IMG/VR virus record: IMGVR_UViG_2534682254_000004
From: a virus
Taxonomy: Duplodnaviria; Heunggongvirae; Uroviricota; Caudoviricetes
DNA length: 16,543 nt
Strand: one strand, 5' to 3'
In this document: positions 1,274-16,543 of the stretch, piece after piece
Position numbering within the stretch: position 1 is the first letter of the stretch
Layout: every line of letters begins with the position of its first letter
Notes under the pieces: generated by a model
Told to the model about the DNA's origin: nothing
The model's input: the letters and a program-made list of their open reading frames with translations, nothing else
Database searches by the model: none
Program-made: the position numbers and the translations under genes

Positions 1274-1300
1274 AAAACTCGGTCGGACTCACTTAACCTG

Positions 1301-1385: not shown

Positions 1386-1402
1386 CCTATGAGGTAAATA
1401 AA

Positions 1403-1672: not shown

Positions 1673-1680
1673 TACTTTTG

Positions 1681-1706: not shown

Positions 1707-1990
1707 TTGCACGATAGTGCACAAGTTTGCACAATTTTTTTGAACGACTTTTTACCCTTCCGGCCCGCATGGCGGCTGGATCCGTCAAGGATCCGTGCGT
1801 GCACAAAAAAACGCGTTTTTTCTGCGCGCAGGTGACGGGGGAACAGCCCGCGTTTCAGGGGGTAAATAGCATCCCCTGAACGATGTCGCAGCGACACAAC
1901 AGAATGGCTGTATTTCTCACGCTGAGCGTGAAAAAGACGTGAGGGCTTTTGATTTGATGGGGTGGCAGATAAGGCCGTCAAAATCGCACT

Positions 1991-2006
1991 GAGGCGGCGA
2001 GAACAT
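1991..2006. other. Candidate cos (cohesive-end) core, GAGGCGGCGAGAACAT
   Basis: About 150 bp outside the portal gene stop, where cos lies in P2-like genomes. Matches about 12 of 16 positions of the P2/186 cohesive-end sequence as I recall it (GGCGAGGCGGGGAAAGCAC). Surrounding DNA is rich in palindromes. Recollection of the reference is not verified. Confidence 0.3.
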
Positions 2007-2158
2007 GCAGTCAGCGCGATGGGATTGCGTAAGAGCCTGACCGTCGATGATGGCAATAAGCTGGAAGGCGTCGTGAAATTATCTGATTGATACAGGAGCT
2101 GGAGAGTCGGGGCATAAATTTTTTATGCCCCGGCGAAGCAGCAGACAAGCGAAGCGCG

Positions 2159-3205: not shown

Positions 3206-4956
3206 CAGAACTCCATAACCGTGAAACGCTCGTTTTCTCCTTCGCCGCCAATCGGTTCGTTAATGACAGCAAGCATGGTTGCCCACGCAAGGTCGCCGTG
3301 GCTGATCCCCCTCGCGCGGTCCGTTTCGTAAGTGATAAAGCCGCCCGGTGTTTTCACCTTACGCACGGCGTTAAAGGCTGCGACCAGCTCGCGTTCGGCG
3401 CGATCGTATTCCCACCGCCCGGCGCGCATTATTTGCAGCATTTTCAGTACCAGCGACCGTTTTGATGACAGCGTGAAGGTGTACGGAATAGCAGCAGGGA
3501 AAAACCGTTTCACTATCTGATAAACAGCCTCCCCGTTCCCGCCTGTCACATCAATGCCGATGTGTTCCACGTTGTAGCGACACGTGAACTCTTCAATGAC
3601 TCTGGCCTGTTCTTCAAACTCCAGCCCCTGAACGCGTCGCGTCTCCACCGTTCGAAAACGGCCACCAGGAACAGCCGGAGGAACCACCACGGACACAGCG
3701 CCGCTGTCGCCGTTGCCACTGCTGCCGTTTGCGTCATACCCAATCCATACCGGACGATTCCCCATCGGGCGGGGAGCAAAAGGTTTCCAGTCTTTCCAGT
3801 CGTCGTATCCGTCAACACCACAGCCAATCAGGATATTCAGGTTAAATGCCGATTCCCCTTCGCGGACAAACTCACACATATAAAGATTGAGGAACTCGTC
3901 TTCGGTGTTTTCATCACGAATTTCATCAATATCGGTGTGTTTCCAGCCGTGATTAACCACATCTTCCAGCGTGACAATTTGCCGCCACGTCCGGTCAGGG
4001 CAGATAAGCCCGTTATGCAGCGTTTTCCAGTCCACAGAAAAACGCTGGCGTTTATGCGTGGCCTTTTTCTCGTTCCAGCGGTCGCCGTTCCAGTAGGCGT
4101 ATGCCTCGTGCGTTTCGGTGGATGGCGTGGAGAAGTAGGTGCGCCGCAGTCCGCTGAGGGTTGCCATAGCGCCAGCCACCTTGCGCAGTTCAGCAAAGCG
4201 ACAGACCCAGAAGAATTCATCAAAATAAAAATTGCCCGTATAGGACTGTGCCGACGCAGCAGAAGTGCCGAGAAAATGCAGCTCTGCGCCGTTGGAGAGG
4301 ATGATTTTATCGCCCCCTTTCAGCTCCACATCAACTTCAGCCGCGGCCTTCTGAATAATGCTTTTAAACTGGAACGCCTGACGACGCGACGCAGACAAAA
4401 AAATCTGGTTACGCTGGTAAGGTTGCGCCACATCGTCACGCAGCGCCATCAGCAGCGCTTCCTGTGCAAAATACCAGGTCGCCCCAATCTGTCGGGATTT
4501 CAGGATCATCCTGTTACGTATCCCTGCTTCCCTGCAAAGGGTCAGGGAGTCAAACCAGCCCCGCTGATGCCACTCCAGCCTGCTGATGATTTTTTCCCGC
4601 AGTGCGGCAATCTGTTCCGGCGTGAAATGATTTTTGAGTTTTTTCGCCCGGCCTTTCTTTCCTGCGGCCATCACATCCGGCTGGCCATCATGCAGCTTTT
4701 TAAGCTGCCGGGTCAGCAGGTCTATTTCCTTAAAGTCACCGCCTGTTTTATTCTGTTTTTCAGTAAGCTGGATGAGGCGCGCATCGATGGACTGCGTGAC
4801 ACGCTGCACAGGTGGCGTTTCATCCCACTGGTCGCGTTTTTTCCACGCATAAATCGTGTTCGGGTTTATTCCCATCAGACGTGATATTTCTGCGGGCGGA
4901 TAACCCTGCCAGTAAAGTTGCCGCGCACGCTGGCGCACAAAAGCGTCCTGAATCAT
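3205..4956 (-). CDS. P: Terminase ATPase / large subunit (P2 gpP-like), 583 aa
   Basis: Size matches P2 P (about 590 aa). N-terminal HTH-like segment and canonical position upstream of Q, divergent from the O-N-M-L operon. Confidence 0.9.
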   Translation of the reverse strand: MIQDAFVRQRARQLYWQGYPPAEISRLMGINPNTIYAWKKRDQWDETPPVQRVTQSIDARLIQLTEKQNKTGGDFKEIDLLTRQLKKLHDGQPDVMAAGKKGRAKKLKNHFTPEQIAALREKIISRLEWHQRGWFDSLTLCREAGIRNRMILKSRQIGATWYFAQEALLMALRDDVAQPYQRNQIFLSASRRQAFQFKSIIQKAAAEVDVELKGGDKIILSNGAELHFLGTSAASAQSYTGNFYFDEFFWVCRFAELRKVAGAMATLSGLRRTYFSTPSTETHEAYAYWNGDRWNEKKATHKRQRFSVDWKTLHNGLICPDRTWRQIVTLEDVVNHGWKHTDIDEIRDENTEDEFLNLYMCEFVREGESAFNLNILIGCGVDGYDDWKDWKPFAPRPMGNRPVWIGYDANGSSGNGDSGAVSVVVPPAVPGGRFRTVETRRVQGLEFEEQARVIEEFTCRYNVEHIGIDVTGGNGEAVYQIVKRFFPAAIPYTFTLSSKRSLVLKMLQIMRAGRWEYDRAERELVAAFNAVRKVKTPGGFITYETDRARGISHGDLAWATMLAVINEPIGGEGENERFTVMEF

Positions 4957-5110
4957 TGCTCCCCCTGAGTAATTACAGGAAGATTACCCGCGCGCGAAAC
5001 CGTTCTCCTTAACCCCCTGTTCTGGCTGTTTTCTTACAACAAAAGCCCTTTGTATCAGCCTGTTACGCTTTGCCATCATGACTGAAGAACCAGTCAGAGG
5101 GGCAAAAACT
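4957..5110. promoter_or_regulatory. Divergent late-promoter region between P (leftward) and O (rightward)
   Basis: In P2 the Ogr-activated P and O promoters lie in this intergenic region. Assigned by position only; I could not find a clean TGT-N12-ACA activator site by eye. Confidence 0.4.
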
Positions 5111-5947
5111 ATGGCTAATGAAAAAAAGACATCACGCAAAAAGTTTCGCGTGGCTGTCTCCGGATCAACTGTTGATGGCCGCGAAATCAGCCCGGTACAT
5201 CTGCGTGAAGCCGCCGAGAACTTCAACCCGGATGTTTACGCTGCCCGCGTGAACGTTGAGCACTATCTCTCGCCATGCCCGTCAAGCGAATTTTCCGCAA
5301 TGGGCGATGTCACCGCACTGAGTACGGAAGATATTACGGAAGGCCCGCTGGCCGGACGTACTGCGTTGTATGCAGAAATCGAACCGACCGAGCGCATGAA
5401 GCAGCTTGTCGCTGACGGCAAGAAAATCTATTCCAGTATCGAACTGCACCCGCAGTTCTCCGTTAACGGGCGCGCCTATCTGGTCGGGCTGGCGATGACC
5501 GACACCCCGGCAAGCCTGGGCACTGAGCGCCTGAAATTCACGGCACAGCAACGTCAGGCAGTGATGACGTTCAACAGTGTCCAGGGTGAGGCACCGCTCA
5601 TTTCCGAAGCCATCGAGTCTGAAATCGTCGAAATGGCAGAACAACGCCAGGAAGAAGGCACCCAGTGGTTTAACCGCGTAATGGGGATTATTGGTCGTGG
5701 ACGCAAAGCGGATGACGCCAGTTTCTCCCGTATTCAGGAAGCGGTGGAAGGCGTCGCAACGTCACAGGCCGACATTATCGACCGTTTTAATGTGCTGGAA
5801 ACCCGCCATCAGCAGGACCGCCAGAAAATCACGTCACTGACCACAGAGCTAGCAGCACTGAAGGAAAAACTGCGCACGCAGGACGGCGATCCGCAGAACC
5901 GCTTCACCGCAACGGGCGCAGCCTCCGACCAGCTGGCTGACTTCTGA
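5111..5947 (+). CDS. O: Capsid scaffolding protein (P2 gpO-like)
   Basis: Translation from MANEKKTSRKKFRVAVSGSTVDGREIS aligns with the P2 gpO N-terminus as recalled (MAKKVSKFFRIGVEGDTCDGRVIS) and with the internal YLVGLAMTDTPASLGTE motif. RBS AGAGGGG sits upstream of the ATG at 5111; the ORF track's 5078 start is probably too early. Confidence 0.85.
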   Translation: MANEKKTSRKKFRVAVSGSTVDGREISPVHLREAAENFNPDVYAARVNVEHYLSPCPSSEFSAMGDVTALSTEDITEGPLAGRTALYAEIEPTERMKQLVADGKKIYSSIELHPQFSVNGRAYLVGLAMTDTPASLGTERLKFTAQQRQAVMTFNSVQGEAPLISEAIESEIVEMAEQRQEEGTQWFNRVMGIIGRGRKADDASFSRIQEAVEGVATSQADIIDRFNVLETRHQQDRQKITSLTTELAALKEKLRTQDGDPQNRFTATGAASDQLADF

Positions 5948-5970
5948 TAAGACAAAGGAGCAAATTTTTT

Positions 5971-7023
5971 ATGAATCTGGTGATGTCAGATATTACCCGC
6001 AACAAGCTGGGTTGCTATATGGCGCAGCAGGCGTCGCTTAACAACATCCCGGTATCTGCACTGGTATCGCGATTTACCGTGGAACCCTCGGTGCAGCAGC
6101 GTTTTGAAAACGCAGTAAAGGAGAGCACTGAATTTACAAAAAAAATTAACGTGTTCGGTGTGACCGACCAGAAAGGCGAAAAAATCCTCCTGGACACCAC
6201 CGGGCCGATTGCGCGCACGAATACCAGTTATGACGGCACAAAACGCCGTAACCCGAATAACGTGGTTGATCTGAAAAACCGCAAATATCAGTGCGAACAG
6301 GTGAACTACGACACGTTTATTTCGTATCCGCAGCTTGATGCCTGGGCGGCACACCCTGATTTTCAGTCACGCGTCAGCACACAGATTGCCCGGCAGGTGG
6401 CGCTTGACCGCATCATGATCGGTTTCAACGGCACGTCTCACGCAGATGAGTCCAACTTCAGCACCAACAAGCTGCTTCAGGACGTTAACGTGGGATGGCT
6501 GGAGCACATCAGAACCGACGCCAGCGAGCGCGTAATGAATGACGTGACGCTGACCTCCCGCAACATGGACAACACCGTGGCGCACGCGGGTAAGTATGCG
6601 AACGCTGATGCACTGGTACAGGACGCGCGCTCATCCCTGCTGGATGAATGGCACAAGGAAGCTGACGACCTCGTGGTGATCATGGGGCGCAACCTGTTTA
6701 ACTCGCTGCGTCTGCCCGTGCTGAACAGCATCAGCGGCCAGAATCCCAATGCGGAATTACTTGCCGGACAGCTCATCCTGTCATCGCGCGCCATTGGCGG
6801 ACTGGATGTATTCCTTGCGCCGTTCTTCCCGGATTCAACGATGCTGATCACCTCGTTCAACAACCTGTCGATTTACTGGCAGAAAGGAACAATGCGTCGC
6901 CTGATGAAAGACGAGCCGGAATACAACCGCATCGCCACCTACCAGTCCATCAATGACGCTTATGTCGTTGAAGACTATGGCAAGTGCGCGATGGTCACTG
7001 GCCTGAAGTTCGCCGACAGCTAA
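5971..7023 (+). CDS. N: Major capsid protein (P2 gpN-like), 350 aa
   Basis: Contains FTVEPSV, GEKI and NLSIYW...YVVEDY segments colinear with P2 gpN as recalled. AAAGGAG RBS upstream. Confidence 0.9.
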   Translation: MNLVMSDITRNKLGCYMAQQASLNNIPVSALVSRFTVEPSVQQRFENAVKESTEFTKKINVFGVTDQKGEKILLDTTGPIARTNTSYDGTKRRNPNNVVDLKNRKYQCEQVNYDTFISYPQLDAWAAHPDFQSRVSTQIARQVALDRIMIGFNGTSHADESNFSTNKLLQDVNVGWLEHIRTDASERVMNDVTLTSRNMDNTVAHAGKYANADALVQDARSSLLDEWHKEADDLVVIMGRNLFNSLRLPVLNSISGQNPNAELLAGQLILSSRAIGGLDVFLAPFFPDSTMLITSFNNLSIYWQKGTMRRLMKDEPEYNRIATYQSINDAYVVEDYGKCAMVTGLKFADS

Positions 7024-7068
7024 TCAACTCACGGCGGGCATCATGCCCGCCTGTAACGGAGAGAAAAA

Positions 7069-7869
7069 ATGATTACTCCTGCACAGCAACACTGGCAGAA
7101 CGTGATGGCACAGCGCGCAGGCCGGGCGAAAGAAGGCGTGGACCACGCCGCGCGTACCGCGCATGAAGAGGTGCTGTATCGTCTGCGTCTGGCACAGGCC
7201 CGGCTTAAGGGCGTACAGGCCAGAAGCGCGAAAGCCGCCATCAAAAAAGAGTTGTTGCCGGATTTTTCCGGCTGGATTGAGGGAACGCTGGAGGCTGACG
7301 GCGGGCAGCAGGATGAAGTGATTGCCACGCTGATGGTGTGGGCGATTGACTGTGGCGATCTTCCGCTTGCGCTGCGTATCGGCGCGTATGTGGTCCGTCA
7401 CAACCTCATCATGCCGGATAACTTTGGCCGTACTGCTGCCACGGTACTGACCGAAGAAATCTGTAATCCGGTACTGACGCAGGCCGGGACGGATGCCGAC
7501 GCGGATTTGTCCGCCTTTATCGAACCACTGGACACCCTCCGGGAGATTGTCACCGACCAGGACATGCCGGACGAAGTGCGCGCCAAATTATGCAAAGCGT
7601 GCGCCTTTGTCCGCCGTGGCCTGAGTGATGCGGACAGCATGGCCCTGTCACTGAAGCTGCTGCGCGAAGCAATGCACCTGAACCCGAACGCAGGTGTGAA
7701 ACGCGAGATTGCAACCCTTTCCCGCGCCCTGAAAAAAGCCGATTCCGCAGCCGCACCAGAAGACGCCAGCACACCGCAGGCGCAGGACGAAAGCAGCAAA
7801 AGTAAAAAGACAACGCGGAAGCCTGCAACACGAAAAACCACCGCGACGCAGAAGGCGAAGCGCGGTTAA
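7069..7869 (+). CDS. M: Terminase endonuclease / small subunit (P2 gpM-like), 266 aa
   Basis: Motifs KKELLPDFSGWIEG, MPDNFGRT and MPDEVRAKLCKA match P2 gpM as recalled. Basic Lys/Arg-rich C-terminus. Confidence 0.85.
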   Translation: MITPAQQHWQNVMAQRAGRAKEGVDHAARTAHEEVLYRLRLAQARLKGVQARSAKAAIKKELLPDFSGWIEGTLEADGGQQDEVIATLMVWAIDCGDLPLALRIGAYVVRHNLIMPDNFGRTAATVLTEEICNPVLTQAGTDADADLSAFIEPLDTLREIVTDQDMPDEVRAKLCKACAFVRRGLSDADSMALSLKLLREAMHLNPNAGVKREIATLSRALKKADSAAAPEDASTPQAQDESSKSKKTTRKPATRKTTATQKAKRG

Positions 7870-7970
7870 CGACTGACCCCGTCAGCGGGCGGCGTGCGCG
7901 GTGTTCCGGTTTGACTCCGTGACCGTTTACACCGCGCACCCACCGCCCGATTTTTTCAGGAGTGAACCCC

Positions 7971-8465
7971 ATGAGTATGGTTGCCAGAACCAACCCCGGA
8001 CCCGCAGAGGACGACATCACCGATACCGATGATGGTGATACCCGTATTTCAGCGGGTGCATTCTGGCCGGATATTGTGCTGCGTGAACTGCGTCTGGCGG
8101 TACGACTGCCGGGCCGTGTGACCACCTCCCGCCTGCTGCATACCGCCACCGGGGCCGTGGCACACGTTACCCGCGAGCTGGAAGCGTGGCAGCAGGAACA
8201 GCAGGCGGCTGGCCATCAGACGCTGGCCGATGTTCCGGCACCCGTAATTAACGGAGAAAGCGTCAATCTCTGGCACTGGCGCAATGCGGTTTACACCGCC
8301 ACACGCGCCCTGATTCTGGAGCGTTACCGCGATGCGGACACAACGGACAAGGGCGACCGCCGGGCGGACGCACTGGATATACAGACATCGGATTTGTGGC
8401 GCGATGTGAGCTGGGCCATCTCTGACATTCTGTGCCGCCCGCGAATCTTTGCGGAGTTGTGCTGA
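7971..8465 (+). CDS. L: Head completion / stabilization protein (P2 gpL-like)
   Basis: TLADVPAPVINGESV ... ILERYRDADTTDKGDRRADALD ... LWRDVSWAI resembles P2 gpL. ATG at 7971 has a GGAG RBS 8 nt upstream; an in-frame GTG at 7962 is the alternative start. Confidence 0.85.
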   Translation: MSMVARTNPGPAEDDITDTDDGDTRISAGAFWPDIVLRELRLAVRLPGRVTTSRLLHTATGAVAHVTRELEAWQQEQQAAGHQTLADVPAPVINGESVNLWHWRNAVYTATRALILERYRDADTTDKGDRRADALDIQTSDLWRDVSWAISDILCRPRIFAELC

Positions 8466-8665
8466 TGAAAGTGAAGGCACTGGAAGGCGACACCGTGGAT
8501 TCGCTCTGTTTCCGGTACTACGGCACGACGCAGGGCGTCACCGAAAAGGTGCTGGATGCCAACCCCGGACTCTGTCAGCAGGTATTTCTGGACGCCGGGC
8601 AGGAAGTGGAGATGCCGGAGCCGGAGAAGAAGAAACGAGAAATGATTCAGTTGTGGGGGGAGTAG
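8465..8665 (+). CDS. X: Tail protein X (P2 gpX-like), 66 aa
   Basis: MKVKALEGDTVDSLCFRYYGTTQGVTEKVLDANPGL resembles P2 gpX (MKTFALQGDTLDAICVRYYGRTEGVVETVLAANPGL as recalled). ATGA overlap with the L stop. Confidence 0.8.
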   Translation: MKVKALEGDTVDSLCFRYYGTTQGVTEKVLDANPGLCQQVFLDAGQEVEMPEPEKKKREMIQLWGE

Positions 8666-8667
8666 CA

Positions 8668-8991
8668 GTGAGCACCATTCAAACAGGGATCACAGAGCAG
8701 GTTATTGCATGGCTCTTTGACCACCTGCCAACGGTGTATGCAGTAGGCGCGGCAGTCAGCATTTCCGCGCTGATGAGTCTTTATGACGGACGAACACTGG
8801 TTCAGACCGTAACGGGATCGCTGGCGTGCGGCGTTCTTGCCATGGCCGTGGCCGGGTCGTTGCGCTTCTTCGGTTTTCCTGAAGATGCCGTGACGTTTAT
8901 CGGCGCATCAATCGGTTTTATGGGGGCAGAGAAAGCACGCGACAAGGTTATTGCGGCCTTTAATCGCAGGGGGAAGGAGAAGGACGAATGA
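8668..8991 (+). CDS. Holin (three predicted TM segments, charged C-terminus), 107 aa, GTG start
   Basis: Three hydrophobic stretches (VYAVGAAVSISALMSL, VTGSLACGVLAMAVAGSL, AVTFIGASIGFMGA) and a C-terminal RRGKEKDE tail. Lies immediately upstream of the endolysin. GGGGGGAG RBS. Confidence 0.7.
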   Translation: MSTIQTGITEQVIAWLFDHLPTVYAVGAAVSISALMSLYDGRTLVQTVTGSLACGVLAMAVAGSLRFFGFPEDAVTFIGASIGFMGAEKARDKVIAAFNRRGKEKDE

Positions 8992-9380
8992 GCAACACAT
9001 TTAAATTCAGCAGCCGGAGCGAAAAGAATTTGCAGGGCGTAAATCCTGATCTGGTGAAAGTGACCCGACGGGCACTGGAAATTTCGGAAGTGGATTTTGG
9101 TATCACCGAAGGGTTGCGCAGCCGTTACCGCCAGAAGCAACTTGTGGCCACGGGTAAGAGCCAGACCATGAACAGCCGCCACCTTACGGGACATGCCGTG
9201 GATGTTGTGGCTTATATCGGCAGCCAGGTGTCATGGGAATGGCCGCTGTACGAAAAAATCGCAGCAGCATTCAGACAGGCCAGCCAGGAGCTGAATATTC
9301 CGGTGGAATGGGGCGGCGACTGGAAGACCCTGAAAGACGGACCGCATTTTCAGTTACCACACGGAGCCTATCCGGCATGA
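8988..9380 (+). CDS. Endolysin, peptidase M15 (VanY/L-Ala-D-Glu endopeptidase-like) family, 130 aa
   Basis: Spacing and context of SRHLTGHAVDV ... DGPHFQL fit the H-x6-D ... H zinc site of M15 peptidases. ATGA overlap with the holin stop. Differs in type from the P2 K lysozyme. Confidence 0.7.
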   Translation: MSNTFKFSSRSEKNLQGVNPDLVKVTRRALEISEVDFGITEGLRSRYRQKQLVATGKSQTMNSRHLTGHAVDVVAYIGSQVSWEWPLYEKIAAAFRQASQELNIPVEWGGDWKTLKDGPHFQLPHGAYPA

Positions 9381-9784
9381 AGCTCTGGCCCACGCTGGGT
9401 GTCGCTTTCCTTCTGATTGCCGCATGGGGAACATCCATGCGTCTGTCATGGTCGCTGGGCCGGGAGAACGCCAGAAACGAAGCGCAGGCCAGCACCCTGA
9501 AACGTACCGCCGACACCCTGAATATCATCAGCGCCGGGGTACAGGATATGCAGCAGGTGCTGGCGCAACTCCGCGTGGAAAATCAGCAACGCAATCAGGA
9601 CGGAGAGGCAAGACGTGAACAGCTACGCAACGATATTGCAAAAGATGAATGCGCCCACGCTTTGCCTGACGCTCGTTTTACTGACAGGCTGCGCAGGCAC
9701 GCAGAACGCGCCACGGCCAGCGCCGTCAGTCCGGCTTATACCGCAGACGCTGACCATACCGGTAACGCCTCCCCCCTTCCCTGA
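9377..9784 (+). CDS. Rz-like i-spanin (P2 LysB analogue)
   Basis: N-terminal TM helix (LWPTLGVAFLLIAAWG) then a charged, coiled-coil-like region. ATGA overlap with the endolysin stop. Contains the start of the embedded o-spanin gene. Confidence 0.7.
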   Translation: MKLWPTLGVAFLLIAAWGTSMRLSWSLGRENARNEAQASTLKRTADTLNIISAGVQDMQQVLAQLRVENQQRNQDGEARREQLRNDIAKDECAHALPDARFTDRLRRHAERATASAVSPAYTADADHTGNASPLP

Positions 9785-9935
9785 CACTCCCACATGGGGA
9801 AATCTCGGTATATGGGGCGACCGCCTTCTGGATGCACTGGAAACCTGTAACGCGGATAAACGGGCCATTGAATTACTGGAACAGCGCAGGCTGCAACGAC
9901 TGAACAACGAGGACAACAACCATGCTGAAAACTGA
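9615..9935 (+). CDS. Rz1-like o-spanin lipoprotein (P2 LysC analogue), +1 frame overlapping the end of Rz
   Basis: Signal peptide with lipobox LLTGC followed by a Pro-rich segment. Starts inside Rz and extends past it, the P2 lysB/lysC architecture. Start is GTG 9615 or ATG 9645. Confidence 0.65.
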   Translation: MNSYATILQKMNAPTLCLTLVLLTGCAGTQNAPRPAPSVRLIPQTLTIPVTPPPFPDTPTWGNLGIWGDRLLDALETCNADKRAIELLEQRRLQRLNNEDNNHAEN

Positions 9936-10389
9936 TTCCCTGCGTGAAGCCATGACCCGTTCATGCCGATGGTGTCAGGCCAACCCGGAAAAATTCACCA
10001 TTTTCGTGGAGAGCGGCAACATTGAAACGACCGGAGAAACGCCCTCGTTTGTTTACCGCTATCAGATGGTGATGTTTGTCATGGATTACGCCGGGGAGCT
10101 GGACGACCTCACGCTGCCGCTACTGGCGTGGTTATCAGAAAATCAGCCACAGTTGTTGCTCAATCCGGAGCGTAATCAGGACATCAAATTCTCCGCCGTT
10201 ATCAATGACGATGACAGCGCCGATCTCCTGTTTACGCTCCCTCTGCGGGAACGCGTTCGCATCACGCGCAGCAGTCAGGGCACGCCGCAGGCAGAACACC
10301 TGCCGGAGCCAAAACCCCGCCTGCCATCTTCCGAAGGCGACTGGTCGCATGTATTCCAGGATGTGACGTGGGGTGAAAGCGATGGATAA
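9922..10389 (+). CDS. R: Tail completion protein (P2 gpR-like), 155 aa
   Basis: Same length as P2 R (155 aa) and canonical position after the lysis genes. Assigned by synteny and size. Confidence 0.8.
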   Translation: MLKTDSLREAMTRSCRWCQANPEKFTIFVESGNIETTGETPSFVYRYQMVMFVMDYAGELDDLTLPLLAWLSENQPQLLLNPERNQDIKFSAVINDDDSADLLFTLPLRERVRITRSSQGTPQAEHLPEPKPRLPSSEGDWSHVFQDVTWGESDG

Positions 10390-11017
10390 GGCATTCACCC
10401 GCGTGGATGAAACCTTTGAGGCCATCCGCGACAGCCTGAATCAGCAGGCCATCAATAACATCGCCAGAAAGCTGGCACAGGATTTACGCCGCGCCCAGCA
10501 GGCGCGTATCCGGTCACAGAAAGCGCCGGACGGGACCGCGTGGACACCACGCAGACGCCGCGTAACCCGGATACAGGAACGCATTCGCTTTATCTGGAAT
10601 AACGAAGCACGCACGCTGAAAAACTGGCATCACGACACGGGGAAATACGGGCGAACCATTACCGGGTGGGATGAGGATAAAAATAATATCCGCACGTTTT
10701 ACCGGGATGACATCGACCGTTTTCTGGAAATACGCACCCGGCGCATCAACCAGGACAGCACAAAGCGCGTCCCCATGTTCGTAAAACTGCGCACCGCCCG
10801 CTACCTGAAAGCCCGTGCAGATGCTTCCGGTGTGACGGTGGGTTACAGCGGCGTGGCCGCACGTATTGCCCGCGTTCATCAGTTCGGTGAGCGCGATCAG
10901 GTTGCGCCGGGCATTTTCACCGATTACCCGGTACGTGAGCTGCTGGGTATCAGCCAGGCAGATGAGCGCCTGATTTATAACACGGTGCTGGGCCGGATTG
11001 CGGAGGCTGTACGGTGA
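10382..11017 (+). CDS. S: Tail completion / virion morphogenesis protein (P2 gpS-like)
   Basis: Sits between R and V and overlaps the R stop. ATG at 10382; an in-frame GTG at 10373 is the alternative. About 60 aa longer than P2 S as I recall it. Confidence 0.75.
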   Translation: MDKAFTRVDETFEAIRDSLNQQAINNIARKLAQDLRRAQQARIRSQKAPDGTAWTPRRRRVTRIQERIRFIWNNEARTLKNWHHDTGKYGRTITGWDEDKNNIRTFYRDDIDRFLEIRTRRINQDSTKRVPMFVKLRTARYLKARADASGVTVGYSGVAARIARVHQFGERDQVAPGIFTDYPVRELLGISQADERLIYNTVLGRIAEAVR

Positions 11018-11595
11018 GCGCAGAACTCATGCGACTGCTGAGCAATATCATCCGCACCGGGATCATCTCTGAAGTTGATGAGGAATCCTGGTGCGTGCGC
11101 GTTCGCAGCGGCGAACTGGAAACAGGCTGGCTGCGCTGGAACACCACGCGCGCGGGTGCCTTCAATGTGTGGTTGCCGCCATCACCCGGCGAACAGGTGG
11201 TAATTGCCTGCATCGGCGGCAACCCGGAAACCGCCATGATAATTGGCAGTCTGTGGAGTGATGCCATTCCGGCACCCGGCAAAAGCCTGAAAGAAATCGT
11301 GGTCAGCGCGCCGGATGGCGCGGTGTTCCGCTACGACGCGGACGCAGGCGCACTGAGCGCCAGCGGCATGAAAACGGCCACTTTGCAGGCATCCGTCAGC
11401 GTGAAACTGGATACGCCCGTCGTGGAATGCACAAACCTTCTGAAAACAGCCGAGATTGACGTCACAAAAGGGGGAAAGATGAGCGGCAATATCACGCACA
11501 GCGGCGGCGATTTCACCTCAAACGGCATCACAGTGCATACGCATAAGCACGGTGGCGTTAAAGGTGGCAGCGATTCGACAGGAGGCCCGCAGTGA
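11014..11595 (+). CDS. V: Baseplate spike protein (P2 gpV-like), 193 aa
   Basis: IRTGIISEV, WLRWNTTRAG, PSPGEQVVIA, VVECTNLL and KGGKMSGNITHSGGDFTSNGITVHTHKH match P2 gpV motifs as recalled. GTG start overlapping the S stop. Confidence 0.85.
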   Translation: MSAELMRLLSNIIRTGIISEVDEESWCVRVRSGELETGWLRWNTTRAGAFNVWLPPSPGEQVVIACIGGNPETAMIIGSLWSDAIPAPGKSLKEIVVSAPDGAVFRYDADAGALSASGMKTATLQASVSVKLDTPVVECTNLLKTAEIDVTKGGKMSGNITHSGGDFTSNGITVHTHKHGGVKGGSDSTGGPQ

Positions 11596-11942
11596 CAACC
11601 CGCTACACAGGAATGAACCCGGACGGAACGGGAAACCTGAACGATATGGAGCACCTGAAACAGTCAGTCAGGGACATCCTGACCACCCCGCTGGCCAGCC
11701 GGGTTATGCGACGGGAATATGGCAGCCTTGTGCCTGATTTGATTGACGAACCCATGAATAACACCACGCGTCTGCAATGCATGAGTGCTGCCGTGATTGC
11801 GCTGACACGATGGGAACCCCGCATTGCCCTGAATGCCATCGACGTTGTCTGGAAGGCAGGAGGCCGCGCCGGGGTGACGCTGTCGGGCACTGTCATGCAG
11901 ACCATGCAGAATGTTGAATTAACCATCACGCTGAGAGAGTAA
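11592..11942 (+). CDS. W: Baseplate wedge protein (P2 gpW / GPW-gp25 family), 116 aa
   Basis: Size matches P2 W (115 aa). GTGA overlap with the V stop; canonical V-W-J order. Confidence 0.85.
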   Translation: MTTRYTGMNPDGTGNLNDMEHLKQSVRDILTTPLASRVMRREYGSLVPDLIDEPMNNTTRLQCMSAAVIALTRWEPRIALNAIDVVWKAGGRAGVTLSGTVMQTMQNVELTITLRE

Positions 11943-11945
11943 ATC

Positions 11946-12842
11946 ATGCCTGCTGTTGACCTTTCCCAGTTACCGGAACCCGCCATCATCGCGGAGCCTG
12001 ATTTTGAGGAAATTCTGGCTGACACAAAGGCCATGATGATTGCGTCCTATCCCGCTGAACAGCGTGAAGCCGTTTCCGCCGCGCTGGAGCTGGAATCGGA
12101 ACCCCTGAACGTTATCGCTCAAACCATGTCGTTTCGTGAAATGCTGTTACGCCAGCGGGTTAACGAGGGCGCACGCGCCTGCATGTTAAGCCACGGTTCA
12201 GGGACAAACCTGGACAACCTCGCGGGCAATATGGACACAAAGCGCCTGGTTATCACTCCGGCAACGGATACCACCGACGCGGTGATGGAGAGCGACACCT
12301 CGCTGAGACTGCGGGCGCAGCGGGCGTATGACGGCCTGAGTGTTGCAGGCCCGTCAGGCGCATACGAGTATTTTGCACGCAGCGCCAGCGGTCTGGTGCG
12401 TGATGCGCGGGCCATCAGCCCGTCTCCGGCCTGTGTGACGGTTTCCATTCTGTCCACTGAAGGCGACGGCACAGCAACGGAGGCGTTGCTTAATACCGTT
12501 CGCGCCGTTCTGAATGCAGAGGATACCCGCCCGGTGGCCGACCGCCTGACCGTACAGAGCGCCAGAATCGTGACATGGCGGCTGAATGCAAAACTGTACT
12601 TTTACCCCGGCCCGGAATCCGAACCTATTCTGGCCGCGGCTGAATCGTCGTTCAGGAAGTGGCTGGCTGAGCAGGGGCTTATCGGTCAGGACGTGGCGTT
12701 GTCCGCCATTGCTGCCGCACTGCATGTGCACGGTGTGCAACGCGTGGAGATAATCGAACCCACACAGAATATGGCCATCAGCGACATACAGGCGGCGCGC
12801 TGTGAGTCATTCACCATCAGCGAAGGTGGGCGCAATGAGTAA
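11946..12842 (+). CDS. J: Baseplate assembly protein (P2 gpJ-like), 298 aa
   Basis: Colinear with P2 gpJ as recalled: MPAVDLSQLPEP, RQRVNEGARA, YDGLSVAGPSGAYEYFARSA, SPSPACVTVSILS, RPVADRLTVQSA, YFYPGPESEPI. Confidence 0.9.
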   Translation: MPAVDLSQLPEPAIIAEPDFEEILADTKAMMIASYPAEQREAVSAALELESEPLNVIAQTMSFREMLLRQRVNEGARACMLSHGSGTNLDNLAGNMDTKRLVITPATDTTDAVMESDTSLRLRAQRAYDGLSVAGPSGAYEYFARSASGLVRDARAISPSPACVTVSILSTEGDGTATEALLNTVRAVLNAEDTRPVADRLTVQSARIVTWRLNAKLYFYPGPESEPILAAAESSFRKWLAEQGLIGQDVALSAIAAALHVHGVQRVEIIEPTQNMAISDIQAARCESFTISEGGRNE

Positions 12843-13443
12843 TTCGTTGTTACCACCATCAGCCAGCAATTTCATGCGTTGTGCCGAAGCCGTCGGAACA
12901 CGCATTACAGACATTCCGGTAGACCTCAACACGCTGTGGTCGCCGGACACCTGCCCGGTGCATCTGCTGCCTTATCTCGCCTGGGCGTTTTCCGTTGACC
13001 GCTGGGATCGCAACTGGCCGGAAGAGACAAAGCGACAGGTGATTCGTGATGCATGGCTGATACACCGACACAAAGGGACCATCAGCGCACTGCGAAGAGC
13101 CGTGGAGCCTCTCGGCTACCTGATTGAAGTAAAGGAGTGGTGGCAACTCAATGAGGAGCCTGGAACATTTCGCATTGTTGTCGGAGTACTTGATCAGGGC
13201 ATCACCGATGAAATGTATCAGGAACTTGAGCGCCTTATTGCGGATGCAAAACCAGTAAGTCGCCATCTGACAGGGCTGGCGATCAGTCTGAGTGTGAACG
13301 GAAAGATTTTCGTTGGTACGGGATGCTATTACGGCGACGCCCTGACGGTTTATCCCTACACCCCGGAGTCCATTGTTGTCGAAGGGGATTATTTCCCGGC
13401 CCCGGCCATTCATTTAATTGATAACCTGAGAGTAAACGCATGA
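12835..13443 (+). CDS. I: Baseplate / tail-fibre attachment protein (P2 gpI-like)
   Basis: From ATG 12835 (overlapping the J stop): MSNSLLPP ... LWSPDTCPVHLLPYLAWAFSVDRWD ... HKGTISALRRAVEPLGYLI ... LIADAKPVSRHL matches P2 gpI. The ORF track's 12802 start is probably too early. Confidence 0.9.
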   Translation: MSNSLLPPSASNFMRCAEAVGTRITDIPVDLNTLWSPDTCPVHLLPYLAWAFSVDRWDRNWPEETKRQVIRDAWLIHRHKGTISALRRAVEPLGYLIEVKEWWQLNEEPGTFRIVVGVLDQGITDEMYQELERLIADAKPVSRHLTGLAISLSVNGKIFVGTGCYYGDALTVYPYTPESIVVEGDYFPAPAIHLIDNLRVNA

Positions 13444-15071
13444 CAGTGAAATACTACGCCATTCTGACTAATCAGGGCGCAGCACGACTGGCTAACGCGA
13501 CGATGCTCGGCAGTAAGCTGAATCTGACGCAAATGGCCGTTGGTGATGCAAATGGTGTGTTACCAACACCAGACCCTGCACAAACAAAACTGATTAACCA
13601 GAAACGCATTGCACCGCTGAATCTTCTGAGTGTTGACCCTAACAATCAGAGCCAGATTATTGCGGAGCAAATCATCCCTGAAAACGAGGGAGGATTCTGG
13701 ATCCGTGAGATTGGTCTTTATGATGATGAAGGTGTACTCATTGCGGTGGCAAACTGCCCGGAAACGTACAAACCGCAGTTGCAGGAAGGCAGTGGACGCA
13801 CCCAGACTATCCGCATGATTCTGGTTGTCACGAACACCGAAGCCATCACGCTGAAAATCGACCCGTCTGTGGTTCTGGCAACCCGCAAATATGTGGATGA
13901 TAAAATATCAGAGCACGAACAATCACGACGTCACCCGGACGCCTCGCTGACCGTAAAAGGTTTTACTCAGTTAAGCAGTGCAATTAACAGTGAATCAGAA
14001 ACACTGGCCGCAACACCGAAAGCGGTTAAGGCTGCATATGACCTGGCTAACGGGAAATATACCGCCCAGAACGCCACCACTACACAAAAAGGGATTGTTC
14101 AGCTCAGTAGCGCCACGAACAGCACGTCTGAAACGCTGGCAGCGACACCAAAAGCTGTTAAGGCGGTAATGGATGAAACGAACAAGAAAGCACCATTAAA
14201 CAGCCCGGCACTGACCGGAACGCCAACAACACCAACAGCGCCACAGGGGACTAATAGTACCCAGATCGCAAGCACGGCTTTCGTTATGGCCGCGATTGCC
14301 GCACTTGTAGATTCGTCACCTGATGCACTGAACACGCTGAACGAACTGGCTGCGGCGCTGGGCAATGACCCGAATTTTGCGACCACCATGACTAACGCGC
14401 TTGCGGGTAAGCAACCGAAGGATGCCACCCTGACGGCGCTGGCGGAGCTTGCTACATCAGCAGATAAACTCCCATATTTTACAGGGGCAGATCGTGCCGC
14501 GTTAACCGCGTTGACAAGTGTTGGACGTGCCATTCTTGGTAAAACCAGCACTCAGGGAGTTCTTGATTACCTTGGTTTGGGAGAAGGCTCTGCATTACCT
14601 GTTGGTGTCCCGGTTCCGTGGCCTTCAGCCACTCCGCCAACAGGCTGGCTGAAATGCAATGGTGCCGCTTTTTCTGCTGAAGAATACCCGGAACTGGCAA
14701 AGGCTTATCCGACAAATAAATTGCCTGATTTACGTGGTGAGTTTATTCGTGGCTGGGATGACGGGCGGGGGATTGATACAGGTCGCTCTATTTTAAGTAT
14801 TCAGGGGTATGCAACGGAGGATCATGCTCATGGATTACCGTCAAGATCTACGATTGTGACTGATGCAACGATTAATTTCTATTTTGATGAAAGCTGGGTA
14901 AATAGTGGCACTGACATTATCAAAAGAGGAAACACAAACGATGCCGAATTACCAGCCCCGGATTATGGAACCTTTAAAACATATAAACAATCAGTGGCTG
15001 GTTTAGGTGCCGCAGCCTCAGAAACGCGTCCGCGTAATATTGCATTTAACTATATCGTGAGGGCAGCCTGA
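13440..15071 (+). CDS. H: Tail fibre protein (P2 gpH-like constant N-terminal part fused to a variable tip carrying a tail-collar-like domain), 543 aa
   Basis: P2 H-type N-terminus (MTVKYYAILTNQGAARLANA, LTQMAVGD, FWIREIGLYDDEGVLIAVAN). Two copies of an SETLAATPKAVKA repeat. C-terminal part (PWPSATPPTGWLKCNGA ... ETRPRNIAFNYIVRAA) resembles the phage tail-collar receptor-binding fold. ATGA overlap with the I stop. Confidence 0.9.
   Translation: MTVKYYAILTNQGAARLANATMLGSKLNLTQMAVGDANGVLPTPDPAQTKLINQKRIAPLNLLSVDPNNQSQIIAEQIIPENEGGFWIREIGLYDDEGVLIAVANCPETYKPQLQEGSGRTQTIRMILVVTNTEAITLKIDPSVVLATRKYVDDKISEHEQSRRHPDASLTVKGFTQLSSAINSESETLAATPKAVKAAYDLANGKYTAQNATTTQKGIVQLSSATNSTSETLAATPKAVKAVMDETNKKAPLNSPALTGTPTTPTAPQGTNSTQIASTAFVMAAIAALVDSSPDALNTLNELAAALGNDPNFATTMTNALAGKQPKDATLTALAELATSADKLPYFTGADRAALTALTSVGRAILGKTSTQGVLDYLGLGEGSALPVGVPVPWPSATPPTGWLKCNGAAFSAEEYPELAKAYPTNKLPDLRGEFIRGWDDGRGIDTGRSILSIQGYATEDHAHGLPSRSTIVTDATINFYFDESWVNSGTDIIKRGNTNDAELPAPDYGTFKTYKQSVAGLGAAASETRPRNIAFNYIVRAA
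14511..14586. repeat. Left arm of a perfect inverted repeat (at least 76 bp) at the constant/variable junction of the tail-fibre gene
   Basis: 14511-14586 is the exact reverse complement of 16468-16543 (checked base by base). Homology ends at 14587/16467. The right arm runs to the window edge, so the repeat may be longer. Confidence 0.9.
14560..14585. other. hix/gix/cix-like 26-bp crossover site (left copy)
   Basis: TTCTTGATTACCTTGGTTTGGGAGAA; its reverse complement TTCTCCCAAACCAAGGTAATCAAGAA shares the ACCAAGGT core and TTCT...GAA flanks with hixL (TTCTTGAAAACCAAGGTTTTTGATAA as recalled). Lies at the inner edge of the inverted repeat where fibre homology ends. Confidence 0.5.
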
Positions 15072-15673
15072 TGCATAAAGCAATATTAAATAGTGACCTT
15101 ATTGCAACAAAGGCAGGGGATGTTACCGTTTATAACTACGATGGTGAAACACGGGAATATATTTCCACGTCAACTGAATATCTTGCTGTTGGTGTCGGTA
15201 TTCCGGCATGTTCCTGTCTTGATGCACCTGGCATACATAAGGTTGGTTATGCAATCTGTCGTTCTGTGAATTTAAATTCATGGGAATATGTGCCAGATCA
15301 TCGCGGTGAAATTGTCTATAGCACCGAAACAGGAGAATCGAAAGAAATCACAGCTCCGGGCGACTATCCCGAAAATACAACCACTATCGCCCCGTTAACG
15401 CCATACGATGAATGGGGTGGTAAGAAATGGGTGACGGATACCGAGGCACAGCATAGCGCCGCAGTAGACGCGGCAGAAGCACAGCGCCAGTCACTGATTG
15501 ATGCAGCAATGGCTTCCATCAGTCTGATTCAACTGAAATTGCAGGCCGGACGTAAACTGACGCAGGCAGAAACAACCAGACTTAACGCTGTGCTGGATTA
15601 CATTGACGCGGTGACGGCAACAGATACCAGCACCGCGCCGGATGTCATCTGGCCTGAACTGCCGGAGGCGTAG
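15071..15673 (+). CDS. Tail fibre assembly chaperone (Tfa / Mu U-like), 200 aa
   Basis: ATGA overlap with the H stop. C-terminal LNAVLDYIDAVTATDTSTAPDVIWPELPEA is the typical Tfa C-terminal signature. Convergent with a second tfa gene. Confidence 0.8.
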   Translation: MHKAILNSDLIATKAGDVTVYNYDGETREYISTSTEYLAVGVGIPACSCLDAPGIHKVGYAICRSVNLNSWEYVPDHRGEIVYSTETGESKEITAPGDYPENTTTIAPLTPYDEWGGKKWVTDTEAQHSAAVDAAEAQRQSLIDAAMASISLIQLKLQAGRKLTQAETTRLNAVLDYIDAVTATDTSTAPDVIWPELPEA

Positions 15674-16097
15674 GCCATTCAATATCTGGCGCACCGGAAG
15701 TATCGATCAGCTCCAGTGCGTCCAGATAATCCAGCCACAAATTATATTGCGCCAGTTCATCACCTTTCAGACGACCAATAGCGGCTTTGCCGGGCCATTG
15801 CTTACTGTTCATGTATTCGTTGGCCTGGTTAATTAGTAGCTGTCTTTCTGATTCAGTAATTTCAATAAGCTCTTCATGCGTGGGTGGAGGAATATCTGCC
15901 CACGCAGGCAGCCCATCACCTCCGGCAATACGGATTTTTCCTTGTGGCGGTTCAGCCATAAATTCACTGATAATATTTTGATTCACCTCTTTAGCATCTG
16001 ATAAATCCCATCCCTCTGATTTATATTTATCAATCATATCCACAGGGAAAAAAGCATTATGCCTTGCGCTATAAACATATTCGTTCATATAAATCAC
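15645..16097 (-). CDS. Alternative tail fibre assembly chaperone (Tfa' / Mu U'-like), 150 aa
   Basis: Minus strand. C-terminus LWLDYLDALELIDTSGAPDIEWPTPPA is a Tfa signature. Its 3' end overlaps the plus-strand tfa by 29 bp (15645-15673). Sits directly downstream of the alternative fibre tip. Confidence 0.8.
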   Translation of the reverse strand: MIYMNEYVYSARHNAFFPVDMIDKYKSEGWDLSDAKEVNQNIISEFMAEPPQGKIRIAGGDGLPAWADIPPPTHEELIEITESERQLLINQANEYMNSKQWPGKAAIGRLKGDELAQYNLWLDYLDALELIDTSGAPDIEWPTPPAVQAR

Positions 16098-16108
16098 CCT
16101 TAATAAAA

Positions 16109-16543
16109 TTACTCACCAACAGCCCACCAACTGTAATTCATCGATACTGTGGAACTGGTTGATGCAGTTCTGTAAGCGGAATTAAAACCGGTTAATGTTG
16201 GACCTTCTGCGGTCATCACGAATCCCCGTCCAGCACCTAAAGGTGCACCACCATCACCAGAATGGGTAAGCATGGCGCAGTCCACTTTTTTAGGAAAAGG
16301 GATGCTGAATGTAATTCTCATTGTTTGCGTCGATAATGTCGGCGTAATCGCACCACGACCATATTGCAGGATTTTCCCGTTGGGTAATTTCATCCATCCA
16401 TCACCACTGGCAAAAGAAGCCATATCCGGTATCTGATTTTCCCCTGTTCCCACATCCCGTTTTGCCGCTTCTCCCAAACCAAGGTAATCAAGAACTCCCT
16501 GAGTGCTGGTTTTACCAAGAATGGCACGTCCAACACTTGTCAA
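16109..16543 (-). CDS. Alternative tail-fibre C-terminal (receptor-binding) segment, Sv'-like; reading frame continues beyond the window edge
   Basis: Minus-strand ORF whose first 25 codons (LTSVGRAILGKTSTQGVLDYLGLGE) are identical to residues of H encoded at 14511-14586, then diverge into an unrelated C-terminus. Open to the window edge. Confidence 0.75.
   Translation of the reverse strand: MTSVGRAILGKTSTQGVLDYLGLGEAAKRDVGTGENQIPDMASFASGDGWMKLPNGKILQYGRGAITPTLSTQTMRITFSIPFPKKVDCAMLTHSGDGGAPLGAGRGFVMTAEGPTLTGFNSAYRTASTSSTVSMNYSWWAVGE
16468..16543. repeat. Right arm of the tail-fibre inverted repeat, including the second hix-like site at 16469-16494
   Basis: Exact reverse complement of 14511-14586; truncated by the window edge. 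Confidence 0.9.

What the first reader, a model, noticed from the sequence alone, without database searches (positions are those of the whole stretch)
14511..16543. Mu G-segment-like invertible host-range cassette on a P2-like tail fibre gene
A perfect inverted repeat of at least 76 bp (14511-14586 / 16468-16543) brackets about 1.9 kb that holds the variable tip of H (14587-15071), a tfa gene (+), a convergent second tfa gene (-) overlapping it by 29 bp, and an alternative fibre tip on the minus strand (16109-16467). Both tips share the 25 codons encoded by the repeat. A 26-bp sequence at the inner edge of each arm resembles Hin/Gin/Cin/Pin crossover sites (core ACCAAGGT, central TT at 14572-14573). 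Inversion would swap the receptor-binding tip and its chaperone. No invertase gene is in the window, so it should lie just beyond the right edge, unless the cassette is frozen. The repeat extending outward from the putative crossover point is unusual, since in Mu the inverted repeats are only 34 bp.
Basis: partly seen in the sequence, partly recalled or inferred. Interest (0 to 1): 0.7.

Follow-up and report, generated by a model that had tools for sequence, protein, structure and literature searches.

The report
Invertible tail-fibre switch, repeat exaggerated by assembly
This is an ordinary, already known kind of phage DNA switch that flips a 1.9-kb segment to swap the tip of a P2-like prophage tail fibre, and the striking 76-base perfect repeat that drew attention comes from assembling a culture that held both orientations.

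Summary
Window 14560-16494 is a Gin/Cin/Pin-type invertible host-range cassette on gene H of a P2-like E. coli prophage. It holds two alternative fibre tips, each with its own chaperone gene, between two 26-bp crossover sites.

The window is the first contig of NCBI scaffold JH709377.1. After an 81-N gap, the next contig encodes a 199-aa serine invertase, 82% identical to PinE of e14.

The 76-bp perfect repeat is not a genomic feature. Two complete genomes match window 1-16482 at 100%, and there the true repeat is 15 exact bases. They diverge from the window immediately after the central AA of the right site. The window's last 61 bases are the junction expected after inversion, and the next contig starts at the first base after that AA.

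So the assembly broke at the crossover point because the sequenced DNA held both orientations. Four complete genomes carry this prophage: two in each orientation, differing by an exact inversion.

Half of the cassette is 95% identical to the e14 P segment. This kind of switch is already known, so interest is low.

The parts
13440..15071 (+). Tail fibre gene H as expressed in the orientation seen in the window (543 aa). The constant part runs up to the crossover site; tip A lies inside the invertible segment.
   Evidence: ORF. Pfam finds Phage_tail_fib N-terminal domain, Phage_fiber_2 repeats and Collar. Identical CDS WP_000217021.1 in E. coli CEC03102.
14560..14585 (.). Left 26-bp crossover site, TTCTTGATTACC TT GGTTTGGGAGAA, with central TT at 14572-14573. 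It lies in coding sequence and encodes ..DYLGLGE.
   Evidence: Sequence. The inner half-site is identical to that of e14. It shares the AAACC-NN-GGT core with the Mu and P1 sites. P1's record annotates the crossover between the two central T.
14574..16480 (.). Invertible segment: about 1.9 kb, 1909 bp between site centres.
   Evidence: E. coli CEC08123 equals CEC03102 with exactly this stretch reverse-complemented, with 0 mismatches in 3710 nt.
14587..15071 (+). Tip A, the receptor-binding end currently fused to H. It is of the Collar-domain type and is the e14 StfE tip.
   Evidence: Pfam Collar at aa 389-436. Window 14569-15770 is 95.3% identical in DNA to e14 stfE-tfaE.
15071..15673 (+). Chaperone gene tfaA for tip A (200 aa, TfaE-like).
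   Evidence: Pfam Caudo_TAP, E 2.5e-32. 93.5% amino-acid identity to e14 TfaE.
15645..16097 (-). Chaperone gene tfaB for tip B. It is silent in this orientation and converges on tfaA with a 29-bp overlap. RefSeq annotates 147 aa, starting from the ATG at window 16088.
   Evidence: Pfam Caudo_TAP, E 1e-30. 53% identity to e14 TfaP. CDS WP_001008238.1.
16109..16467 (-). Tip B, the alternative fibre end (gp53-like C-terminal domain). It becomes fused to H after inversion, giving a 501-aa fibre.
   Evidence: Pfam Gp53-like_C, E 8e-13. In-frame fusion checked. The same fusion is annotated as the 501-aa WP_000217018.1 in CEC08123.
16469..16482 (.). Genuine part of the right crossover site: inner half-site TTCTCCCAAACC plus central AA (16481-16482). 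The genuine outer half, CGTTTAAGAAAA, is not in the window.
   Evidence: The full right site in twin genomes is 25/26 identical to the right site of e14. Only these two copies of the half-site occur in the window, against 0.10 expected by chance.
16483..16543 (.). 61-nt tail that is the reverse complement of 14511-14571. It is the junction of the other orientation (tip B joined to the constant part of H), attached at the contig end by the assembler.
   Evidence: Absent at this place in CEC03102 and NCCP 14541, which are 100% identical up to 16482/16485. Present exactly in the inverted genome CEC08123. The source scaffold has 81 N straight after it, and the next contig starts at the first base after the central AA.

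Best explanation
The region is a working two-state DNA inversion switch of the Gin/Cin/Pin/Hin (Din) type in a P2-like prophage of E. coli.

How it works:
- A serine invertase is encoded just right of the window.
- It binds two 26-bp sites, one at 14560-14585 and one starting at 16469. The sites share the inner half TTCTCCCAAACC and the central AA/TT but differ in their outer halves.
- By analogy with Hin and Gin, it cuts both sites at the central dinucleotide and rotates one pair of subunits. This flips the 1.9 kb in between.
- In the orientation shown, the late operon reads H constant part + tip A (Collar, StfE-like) and then chaperone tfaA.
- After inversion it reads H constant part + tip B (gp53-like) and then tfaB.
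- Progeny phage would therefore carry one of two receptor-binding tips. That effect on host range is inferred, not shown.

Why the repeat looks long:
- The 76-nt perfect repeat exists only in the assembled contig.
- The sequenced culture held both orientations.
- The assembler followed the orientation-A junction on the left and the orientation-B junction on the right. It stopped when it ran back into H.
For: Shown by tool results:
1. Window 1-16482 is 100% identical to two complete genomes, which then read CGTTTAAGAAAA and encode a 199-aa recombinase from 67 nt on.
2. The window is positions 1-16543 of scaffold JH709377.1. It is followed by 81 N and then by a contig that starts exactly at CGTTTAAGAAAA. 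Over the 182 nt aligned, that contig is identical to the complete genome, and it carries the invertase gene.
3. Window 16400-16543 occurs exactly in the inverted twin genome and not in the non-inverted one.
4. CEC08123 equals CEC03102 apart from an exact inversion between the sites, with 0 mismatches in 3710 nt.
5. At 100% identity, orientation A is found in 2 complete genomes and orientation B in 2.
6. The invertase has Resolvase and HTH_7 domains. It is 82% identical to PinE and 73% to Gin. It matches the Gin crystal structures at E about 1e-90.
7. The sites match those of e14, Mu and P1 read from the public records of those genomes. The P1 record marks its crossover point and the Mu record marks the G-segment boundaries.
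8. Both H fusions are open and in frame, at 543 and 501 aa.

Inferred:
- Dependence on Fis and an enhancer. Nt 19-90 of the invertase gene are 81% identical to the enhancer annotated in P1 cin, against 60% for nt 91-150. The residues Q150, R153 and L154 correspond to Hin residues that are proposed to interact with Fis (PMC3798978).
- Inversion in P2-like prophages has been shown experimentally in another strain (PMC4272514).
Against: - No reads were available, so the mixture of orientations in the sequenced DNA is inferred from the contig and scaffold structure.
- The assembler and its settings are unknown. The fit to k = 77 is suggestive only: the terminal 77-mer 16467-16543 holds exactly one segment-specific base. 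The neighbouring contig also lacks the 15 shared bases that a simple de Bruijn model would leave on it.
- The enhancer similarity is confounded by conservation of the protein's N-terminus.
- Receptor specificities of the two tips, and whether this prophage still makes particles, were not tested.
Confidence: 0.93

Rival explanations
1. The long inverted repeat is real in this strain. A partial copy of the H constant region lies in inverted orientation between tip B and the invertase, so the strain encodes two convergent fibre genes or has a perfectly symmetrical pair of sites.
For: - The window sequence itself shows 76 nt of perfect repeat running to its end.
- The 81-N gap leaves room for unseen sequence.
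- One IMG/VR contig (L009) does carry a second, 5'-truncated H copy next to such a cassette.
Against: - None of 5426 complete E. coli genomes holds the window's arrangement. The best matches stop at 16482/16485.
- The neighbouring contig starts at exactly the first base after the central AA. A hybrid junction predicts this; a duplication does not require it.
- The second H copy in L009 is a direct repeat, not an inverted one. Its cassette junction is simply the orientation-B junction.
Confidence: 0.03
2. The cassette is a frozen relic. The 61-nt tail is a chimeric read or a generic misassembly unrelated to site-specific inversion.
For: - Draft assemblies of that period contain chimeric ends.
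- No reads were examined here.
Against: - The tail begins at the base after the central dinucleotide of a canonical invertase site. It reproduces base for base the junction found in naturally inverted twin genomes.
- An intact invertase gene lies next to it.
- Identical prophages occur in both orientations.
Confidence: 0.03
3. The switch works as described, but in the lysogen its main benefit goes to the host. One orientation would yield a fibre-tip protein that blocks adsorption of other phages, as reported for the e14 StfE2 chimera.
For: - Tip A and tfaA are 95% identical in DNA to the e14 stfE-tfaE half.
- PMC12529663 reports that inversion of the e14 P segment creates StfE2, which inhibits T2 adsorption.
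Against: - Here the tips are fused to a full-length H gene inside an otherwise complete late operon of a P2-like prophage.
- By established P2 biology, that operon is silent in lysogens.
- No expression data are available.
- This reading does not exclude the host-range function.
Confidence: 0.06

Closest known systems
P segment and PinE invertase of the e14 cryptic prophage, E. coli K-12
   Same: - Same layout: tip, tfa, convergent tfa with a 29-bp overlap, tip, invertase.
- Identical inner half-sites, and a right site that is 25/26 identical.
- Invertase 82% identical.
- Tip A and tfaA 95% identical in DNA.
   Different: - Here the cassette sits on a full-length P2-type H gene in an apparently complete prophage, not on a short remnant.
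- Tip B is of an unrelated gp53-like type.
- tfaB is only 53% identical to TfaP.
- The segment measures 1881 nt between the repeats, against 1797 nt in e14.
G segment and Gin of phage Mu
   Same: - Constant N-terminal fibre part outside the segment.
- Two variable tips, each with its own chaperone, in opposite orientation inside it.
- Invertase gene just outside the right site.
- Invertase 73% identical.
- 26-bp sites with the same core.
   Different: - Mu's segment is about 3 kb.
- Mu's sites (TTATCCAAAACC TC GGTTTACAGGAA) have a different central dinucleotide.
- The host phage is of P2 type, not Mu type.
C segment and Cin of phage P1
   Same: - Same enzyme family and same site core: TTCTCTTAAACC AA GGT....
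- The crossover is annotated between the two central bases.
- The enhancer lies inside the 5' end of the invertase gene.
   Different: P1's record does not annotate its repeats. From my own knowledge, P1 has 0.6-kb inverted repeats that lie inside the invertible segment. The apparent long repeat here lies outside it and is an assembly product.
Invertible tail-fibre loci in P2-like prophages of EPEC E2348/69 (PMC4272514)
   Same: Co-existing orientations of a fibre cassette in P2-like prophages were detected from short reads and checked by PCR, including a simple two-state version.
   Different: - I did not test whether those cassettes are the same sequence.
- One EPEC locus has three repeats and four variants, whereas this window has two sites.
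Hin/hix flagellar phase switch of Salmonella
   Same: - The invertase's C-terminal domain matches the Hin DNA-binding domain structure.
- It keeps the Q..RL residues that are proposed to interact with Fis (PMC3798978).
- The sites are likewise 26 bp long.
   Different: Hin flips a promoter. This switch flips coding ends of a structural gene together with their chaperone genes.

Membership tests
Din-family (Gin/Cin/Pin/Hin) DNA inversion systems | Small serine recombinase with an N-terminal catalytic domain (nucleophile Ser in the YVRVST motif) and a C-terminal helix-turn-helix, encoded next to the segment | tested here: met
   The gene is outside the window. It lies on the next contig of the source scaffold and in twin genomes. 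Pfam finds Resolvase (E 4e-51) and HTH_7. MLIGYVRVSTNDQ is present. It is 82% identical to PinE and 73% to Gin, and matches PDB Gin at E about 1e-90.
Din-family (Gin/Cin/Pin/Hin) DNA inversion systems | Two 26-bp imperfectly palindromic crossover sites in inverted orientation with the core AAACC-NN-GGT and the same central dinucleotide | tested here: met
   The left site is at 14560-14585. The right site is TTCTCCCAAACC AA CGTTTAAGAAAA in twin genomes and in the scaffold. Compared with the e14, Mu and P1 sites read from their public records. There are only two copies in the window, against 0.10 expected.
Din-family (Gin/Cin/Pin/Hin) DNA inversion systems | Conservative inversion exactly between the sites, with both orientations found in nature | tested here: met
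   An exact inversion with 0 mismatches in 3710 nt separates two complete genomes. At 100% identity there are 2 genomes in orientation A and 2 in orientation B. The source assembly holds a hybrid junction.
Din-family (Gin/Cin/Pin/Hin) DNA inversion systems | Recombinational enhancer with Fis sites in cis, usually inside the 5' end of the invertase gene | tested here: inconclusive
   Nt 19-90 of the invertase gene are 81% identical to the enhancer annotated in P1 cin, against 60% for nt 91-150. This region also encodes the conserved catalytic N-terminus.
Din-family (Gin/Cin/Pin/Hin) DNA inversion systems | Dependence on Fis and on negative supercoiling | not testable with these tools
   Indirect only: Q150, R153 and L154 align with Hin Q151, R154 and L155, which PMC3798978 proposes to interact with Fis.
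Invertible tail-fibre host-range cassette (Mu G / P1 C / e14 P type) | Crossover site inside the fibre gene, so that one constant N-terminal part is joined in frame to either of two C-terminal tips | tested here: met
   Both fusions are open reading frames of 543 and 501 aa. Both are annotated as such in complete genomes.
Invertible tail-fibre host-range cassette (Mu G / P1 C / e14 P type) | Each tip followed by its own tail-fibre assembly chaperone gene, the two pairs convergent | tested here: met
   Two Caudo_TAP genes lie at 15071-15673 (+) and 15645-16097 (-).
Invertible tail-fibre host-range cassette (Mu G / P1 C / e14 P type) | The two orientations give particles with different host range | not testable with these tools
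   The tips have unrelated folds by Pfam (Collar versus Gp53-like_C), which fits different receptors. No adsorption data are available.
P2-like (Peduoviridae) prophage | P2 gene order Q P O N M L X ... V W J I H with P2-family hallmark proteins | tested here: met
   Annotated twins of the window carry portal, terminase, P2-family capsid, GpR, S, V, W, J, I and H.

The most novel reading that the evidence does not exclude
Besides setting phage host range, the switch gives the lysogen a reversible defence. In one orientation the StfE-type tip (95% identical to the e14 tip reported to block T2 adsorption) would be made at low level from the prophage and mask outer-membrane receptors. Inversion would then toggle the host's susceptibility to other phages.
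Probability: 0.06. Interest if true: 0.5.

Novelty: already known. Interest (0 to 1): 0.12.

Why it matters
Biologically this adds nothing new. Invertible fibre cassettes with Pin/Gin-type invertases are textbook, and they have been seen flipping in P2-like E. coli prophages.

The practical lesson is for genome scanning. A perfect inverted repeat that runs into a contig end may be the trace of an active inversion switch in the sequenced culture, not a long genomic repeat, particularly when its length is near a typical assembly k-mer. Such contig ends could be mined as free evidence of phase variation. They should also not be read as unusual site architecture.

The case further shows that the silent tip's apparent long shared N-terminal stretch in draft assemblies can be spurious.

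Tried and rejected
- **Real long repeat.** Rejected as the main reading because no complete genome has it and the scaffold breaks at the crossover base.
- **Third crossover site (multi-inversion system).** A half-site search with up to 2 mismatches found only the two sites.
- **Fresh large inversion next to the invertase.** In twin genomes the tail genes FI to U lie on the opposite strand from D. This junction is present in 1358 genomes, so it is the normal gene order of this prophage lineage. A weak site-like sequence there was not pursued.
- **Left end of the window as a repeat boundary.** Both sides of it occur twice in the twin genomes. That fits a second related prophage but does not explain the break. 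Inconclusive.
- **Scan of genome contigs for the hybrid junction.** 0 hits.
- **NCBIfam.** It gave no family for H or the chaperones, and only sub-threshold matches for the invertase.
- **Promoter scan upstream of the invertase.** Nothing found.
- **Naming the assembler from the 76-nt overlap.** The terminal 77-mer fits k = 77, but the neighbouring contig's start does not fit a simple de Bruijn model. I leave this as a suggestion only.
- **Script access.** Several loci (L002, L004, L007, L008, L011) could not be read by scripts, so I inspected them with get_sequence and DNA alignment instead.
Full report
**1. The observation**

The inverted repeat is in the window as stated. The arms are 14511-14586 and 16468-16543, 76 nt, 100% complementary, with 1881 nt between them. 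The right arm is cut by the end of the window.

The gene content between the arms is also as stated:

| Window coordinates | Strand | Feature | Pfam evidence |
|---|---|---|---|
| 13440-15071 | + | Gene H, 543 aa | Phage_tail_fib N-terminal domain, fibre repeats, Collar domain at aa 389-436 (inside the segment) |
| 15071-15673 | + | Chaperone tfaA | Caudo_TAP |
| 15645-16097 | - | Chaperone tfaB, 29-bp overlap with tfaA | Caudo_TAP |
| 16109-16543 | - | Open frame running off the window | Gp53-like_C fibre-tip domain |

The 26-bp site is at 14560-14585 (TTCTTGATTACC TT GGTTTGGGAGAA), with central TT at 14572-14573. Its inverted partner starts at 16469.

**2. What lies beyond the window, and why the repeat looks long**

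The whole window from 1 to 16482/16485 is 100% identical to two complete E. coli chromosomes, CEC03102 and NCCP 14541. Both part from the window immediately after the central AA (16481-16482) of the right site.
- The window continues GGTAATCAAGAACTCC..., which is the reverse complement of the H constant region.
- The genomes continue CGTTTAAGAAAATGCAG....

In those genomes the inverted repeat is 15 nt exact, or 18 nt with one mismatch. A 199-aa 'recombinase family protein' starts 67 nt after the crossover centre.

I then looked up the truncated 144-aa product of the minus-strand frame at the window's end. It is on record in one place: NCBI assembly GCA_000267885.2, scaffold JH709377.1, 19205 nt.
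- The window is positions 1-16543 of that scaffold, that is, its first contig.
- It is followed by 81 N.
- The next contig begins exactly at CGTTTAAGAAAATGC, the first base after the central AA. Over the 182 nt aligned it is identical to CEC03102, and it carries the invertase gene.

So the assembly broke at the crossover point to the base. The window's last 61 nt are the junction of the other orientation.

**3. Both orientations exist**

A query made of the H constant part joined to tip B (orientation B) matches two further complete genomes, CEC08123 and PA2, at 100% over all 855 nt. The orientation-A junction matches CEC03102 and NCCP 14541 at 100%.

From the H start to the end of the invertase gene, CEC08123 equals CEC03102 with the stretch between the two half-sites reverse-complemented, with 0 mismatches in 3710 nt. 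Window 16400-16543 is found exactly in the inverted genome and not in the other.

In CEC08123 the fibre is annotated as a 501-aa protein, with the same two chaperones and the same invertase protein accessions. My in-frame fusion of 13440-14586 with the reverse complement of 16109-16467 gives the same 501 aa.

**4. The enzyme and the sites**

The invertase:
- It has Resolvase and HTH_7 domains and the YVRVST nucleophile motif.
- It is 82% identical to PinE of e14 and 73% to Gin of Mu.
- It matches the Gin crystal structures 3UJ3 and 4M6F at E about 1e-90.
- It keeps Q150, R153 and L154. These correspond to the Hin residues that PMC3798978 describes as uniquely conserved among DNA invertases and proposed to interact with Fis.

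The sites, compared with those read from the public records of e14, Mu and P1:

| Element | Site | Sequence |
|---|---|---|
| e14 | left | CTCTCGAAAACC TT GGTTTGGGAGAA |
| e14 | right | TTCTCCCAAACC AA CGTTTATGAAAA |
| Mu | gix | TTATCCAAAACC TC GGTTTACAGGAA |
| Mu | gix | TTCCTGTAAACC GA GGTTTTGGATAA |
| P1 | cix | TTCTCTTAAACC AA GGTATTGGATAA |

- The P1 record annotates the crossover between the two central bases.
- The true right site here is 25/26 identical to the right site of e14.
- The half-site with its central AA occurs only twice in the window, against 0.10 expected by chance. This is therefore a two-state switch, not a multi-inversion system.
- The stretch of the invertase gene that corresponds to P1's annotated enhancer (nt 19-90) is 81% identical to P1, against 60% for the next 60 nt. 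This is suggestive only, because the stretch also encodes the conserved N-terminus.

**5. Relation to e14**

Window 14569-15770 (tip A and most of tfaA) is 95.3% identical in DNA to the stfE-tfaE half of the e14 P segment. TfaA is 93.5% identical to TfaE. TfaB is 53% identical to TfaP, and tip B has no counterpart in e14. The convergent 29-bp overlap of the chaperone genes is the same in e14.

**6. Mechanism**

Shown:
- two sites, an adjacent invertase gene and an exact inversion in nature;
- two in-frame fibre variants, each followed by its own chaperone gene.

Inferred from the Hin and Gin systems (PMC3798978):
- invertase dimers on the two sites synapse at a Fis-bound enhancer on supercoiled DNA;
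- they cut at the central dinucleotide, and one subunit rotation inverts the segment.

Inferred from Mu, P1 and the unrelated tip folds:
- particles made in the two states use different receptors.

**7. The artefact**

The terminal 77-mer (16467-16543) contains exactly one base specific to the segment followed by the 76-nt repeat. A node-centred de Bruijn assembler at k = 77 would leave this if it followed the orientation-B junction and stopped on re-entering H. This is an inference. The assembler is unknown, and the neighbouring contig's start (lacking the 15 shared bases) does not fit the simplest model.

The main conclusion does not depend on k. It rests on the scaffold structure and on the twin genomes.

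**8. Comparison with what is known, and verdict**

Inversion of fibre cassettes by Pin/Gin/Cin-type enzymes is long established. Co-existing orientations in P2-like prophages of E. coli have been shown from read data and PCR (PMC4272514).

A recent paper reports that inversion of the e14 segment yields a protein that blocks T2 adsorption (PMC12529663). Because tip A is the same as that e14 tip, a host-defence side role cannot be excluded. However, the tips here sit on a full H gene in a late operon.

Verdict:
- The feature flagged as unusual is an assembly by-product.
- The system is of an already known kind, so interest is low.

Noticed in passing
window 1-1672: The accessory region left of the portal gene, which in P2 lies beyond the replication genes, holds other genes here. 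The twin genome annotates a ParM-type plasmid segregation gene (cut by the window start, ending at 722), a 'plasmid partitioning/stability family' gene (727-1038) and a small hypothetical gene (1403-1672). An actin-like partition system in an integrated P2-like prophage is odd.
   Followed up: no
window 1 (left contig end); L003 12628-13827: The window starts in the middle of the parM gene. It is also the start of the scaffold. The 600 nt on either side of that point each occur at two places in the twin genomes, which suggests a second related prophage caused the break.
   Followed up: partly
L004 1403-8254 (E. coli CEC03102, just right of the window): After the invertase gene, the tail genes U, T, E', E, FII and FI lie on the minus strand. 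D follows on the plus strand from about 7146, unlike P2, where FI to D form one plus-strand operon. The FI/D divergent junction is present in 1358 complete genomes, so it is the normal layout of this lineage. How D is transcribed there is unclear. D is annotated as a shortened 266-aa protein with a small pseudogene fragment beside it.
   Followed up: partly
L009 1-4549 (IMG/VR UViG 2690316318_000018): A related phage contig carries a full H with a tip-A-like end and a tfaA-like gene. Next comes a second H copy lacking its first ~37 codons, joined to tip B in orientation B, then tfaB and a reversed tfaA. The two H copies share a 300-nt, 100% direct repeat. The two tfaA copies form a 490-nt inverted repeat at 95%. 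This is either a real tandem fibre arrangement or another assembly product of a flipping cassette.
   Followed up: partly
L004 7058-7090 (outside the window): The sequence TTCTCCCGACCC GG CGACAACAAAAA, between FI and D, resembles the crossover half-site TTCTCCCAAACC in 10 of 12 positions. It may be chance. I did not test whether it can serve as a secondary site.
   Followed up: no
window 15645-15673: The two convergent chaperone genes overlap by 29 bp, so the C-terminal residues of both proteins (..WPELPEA and ..WPTPPAVQAR) are encoded on opposite strands of the same DNA. e14 has the same 29-bp overlap.
   Followed up: partly
L001 7700-7729 (outside the window): A 12-bp-stem hairpin, AAAACCGCTAAT..ATTAGCGGTTTT, spans the invertase stop codon. 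It sits between the invertase gene and the convergent gpU gene and looks like a two-way terminator.
   Followed up: no
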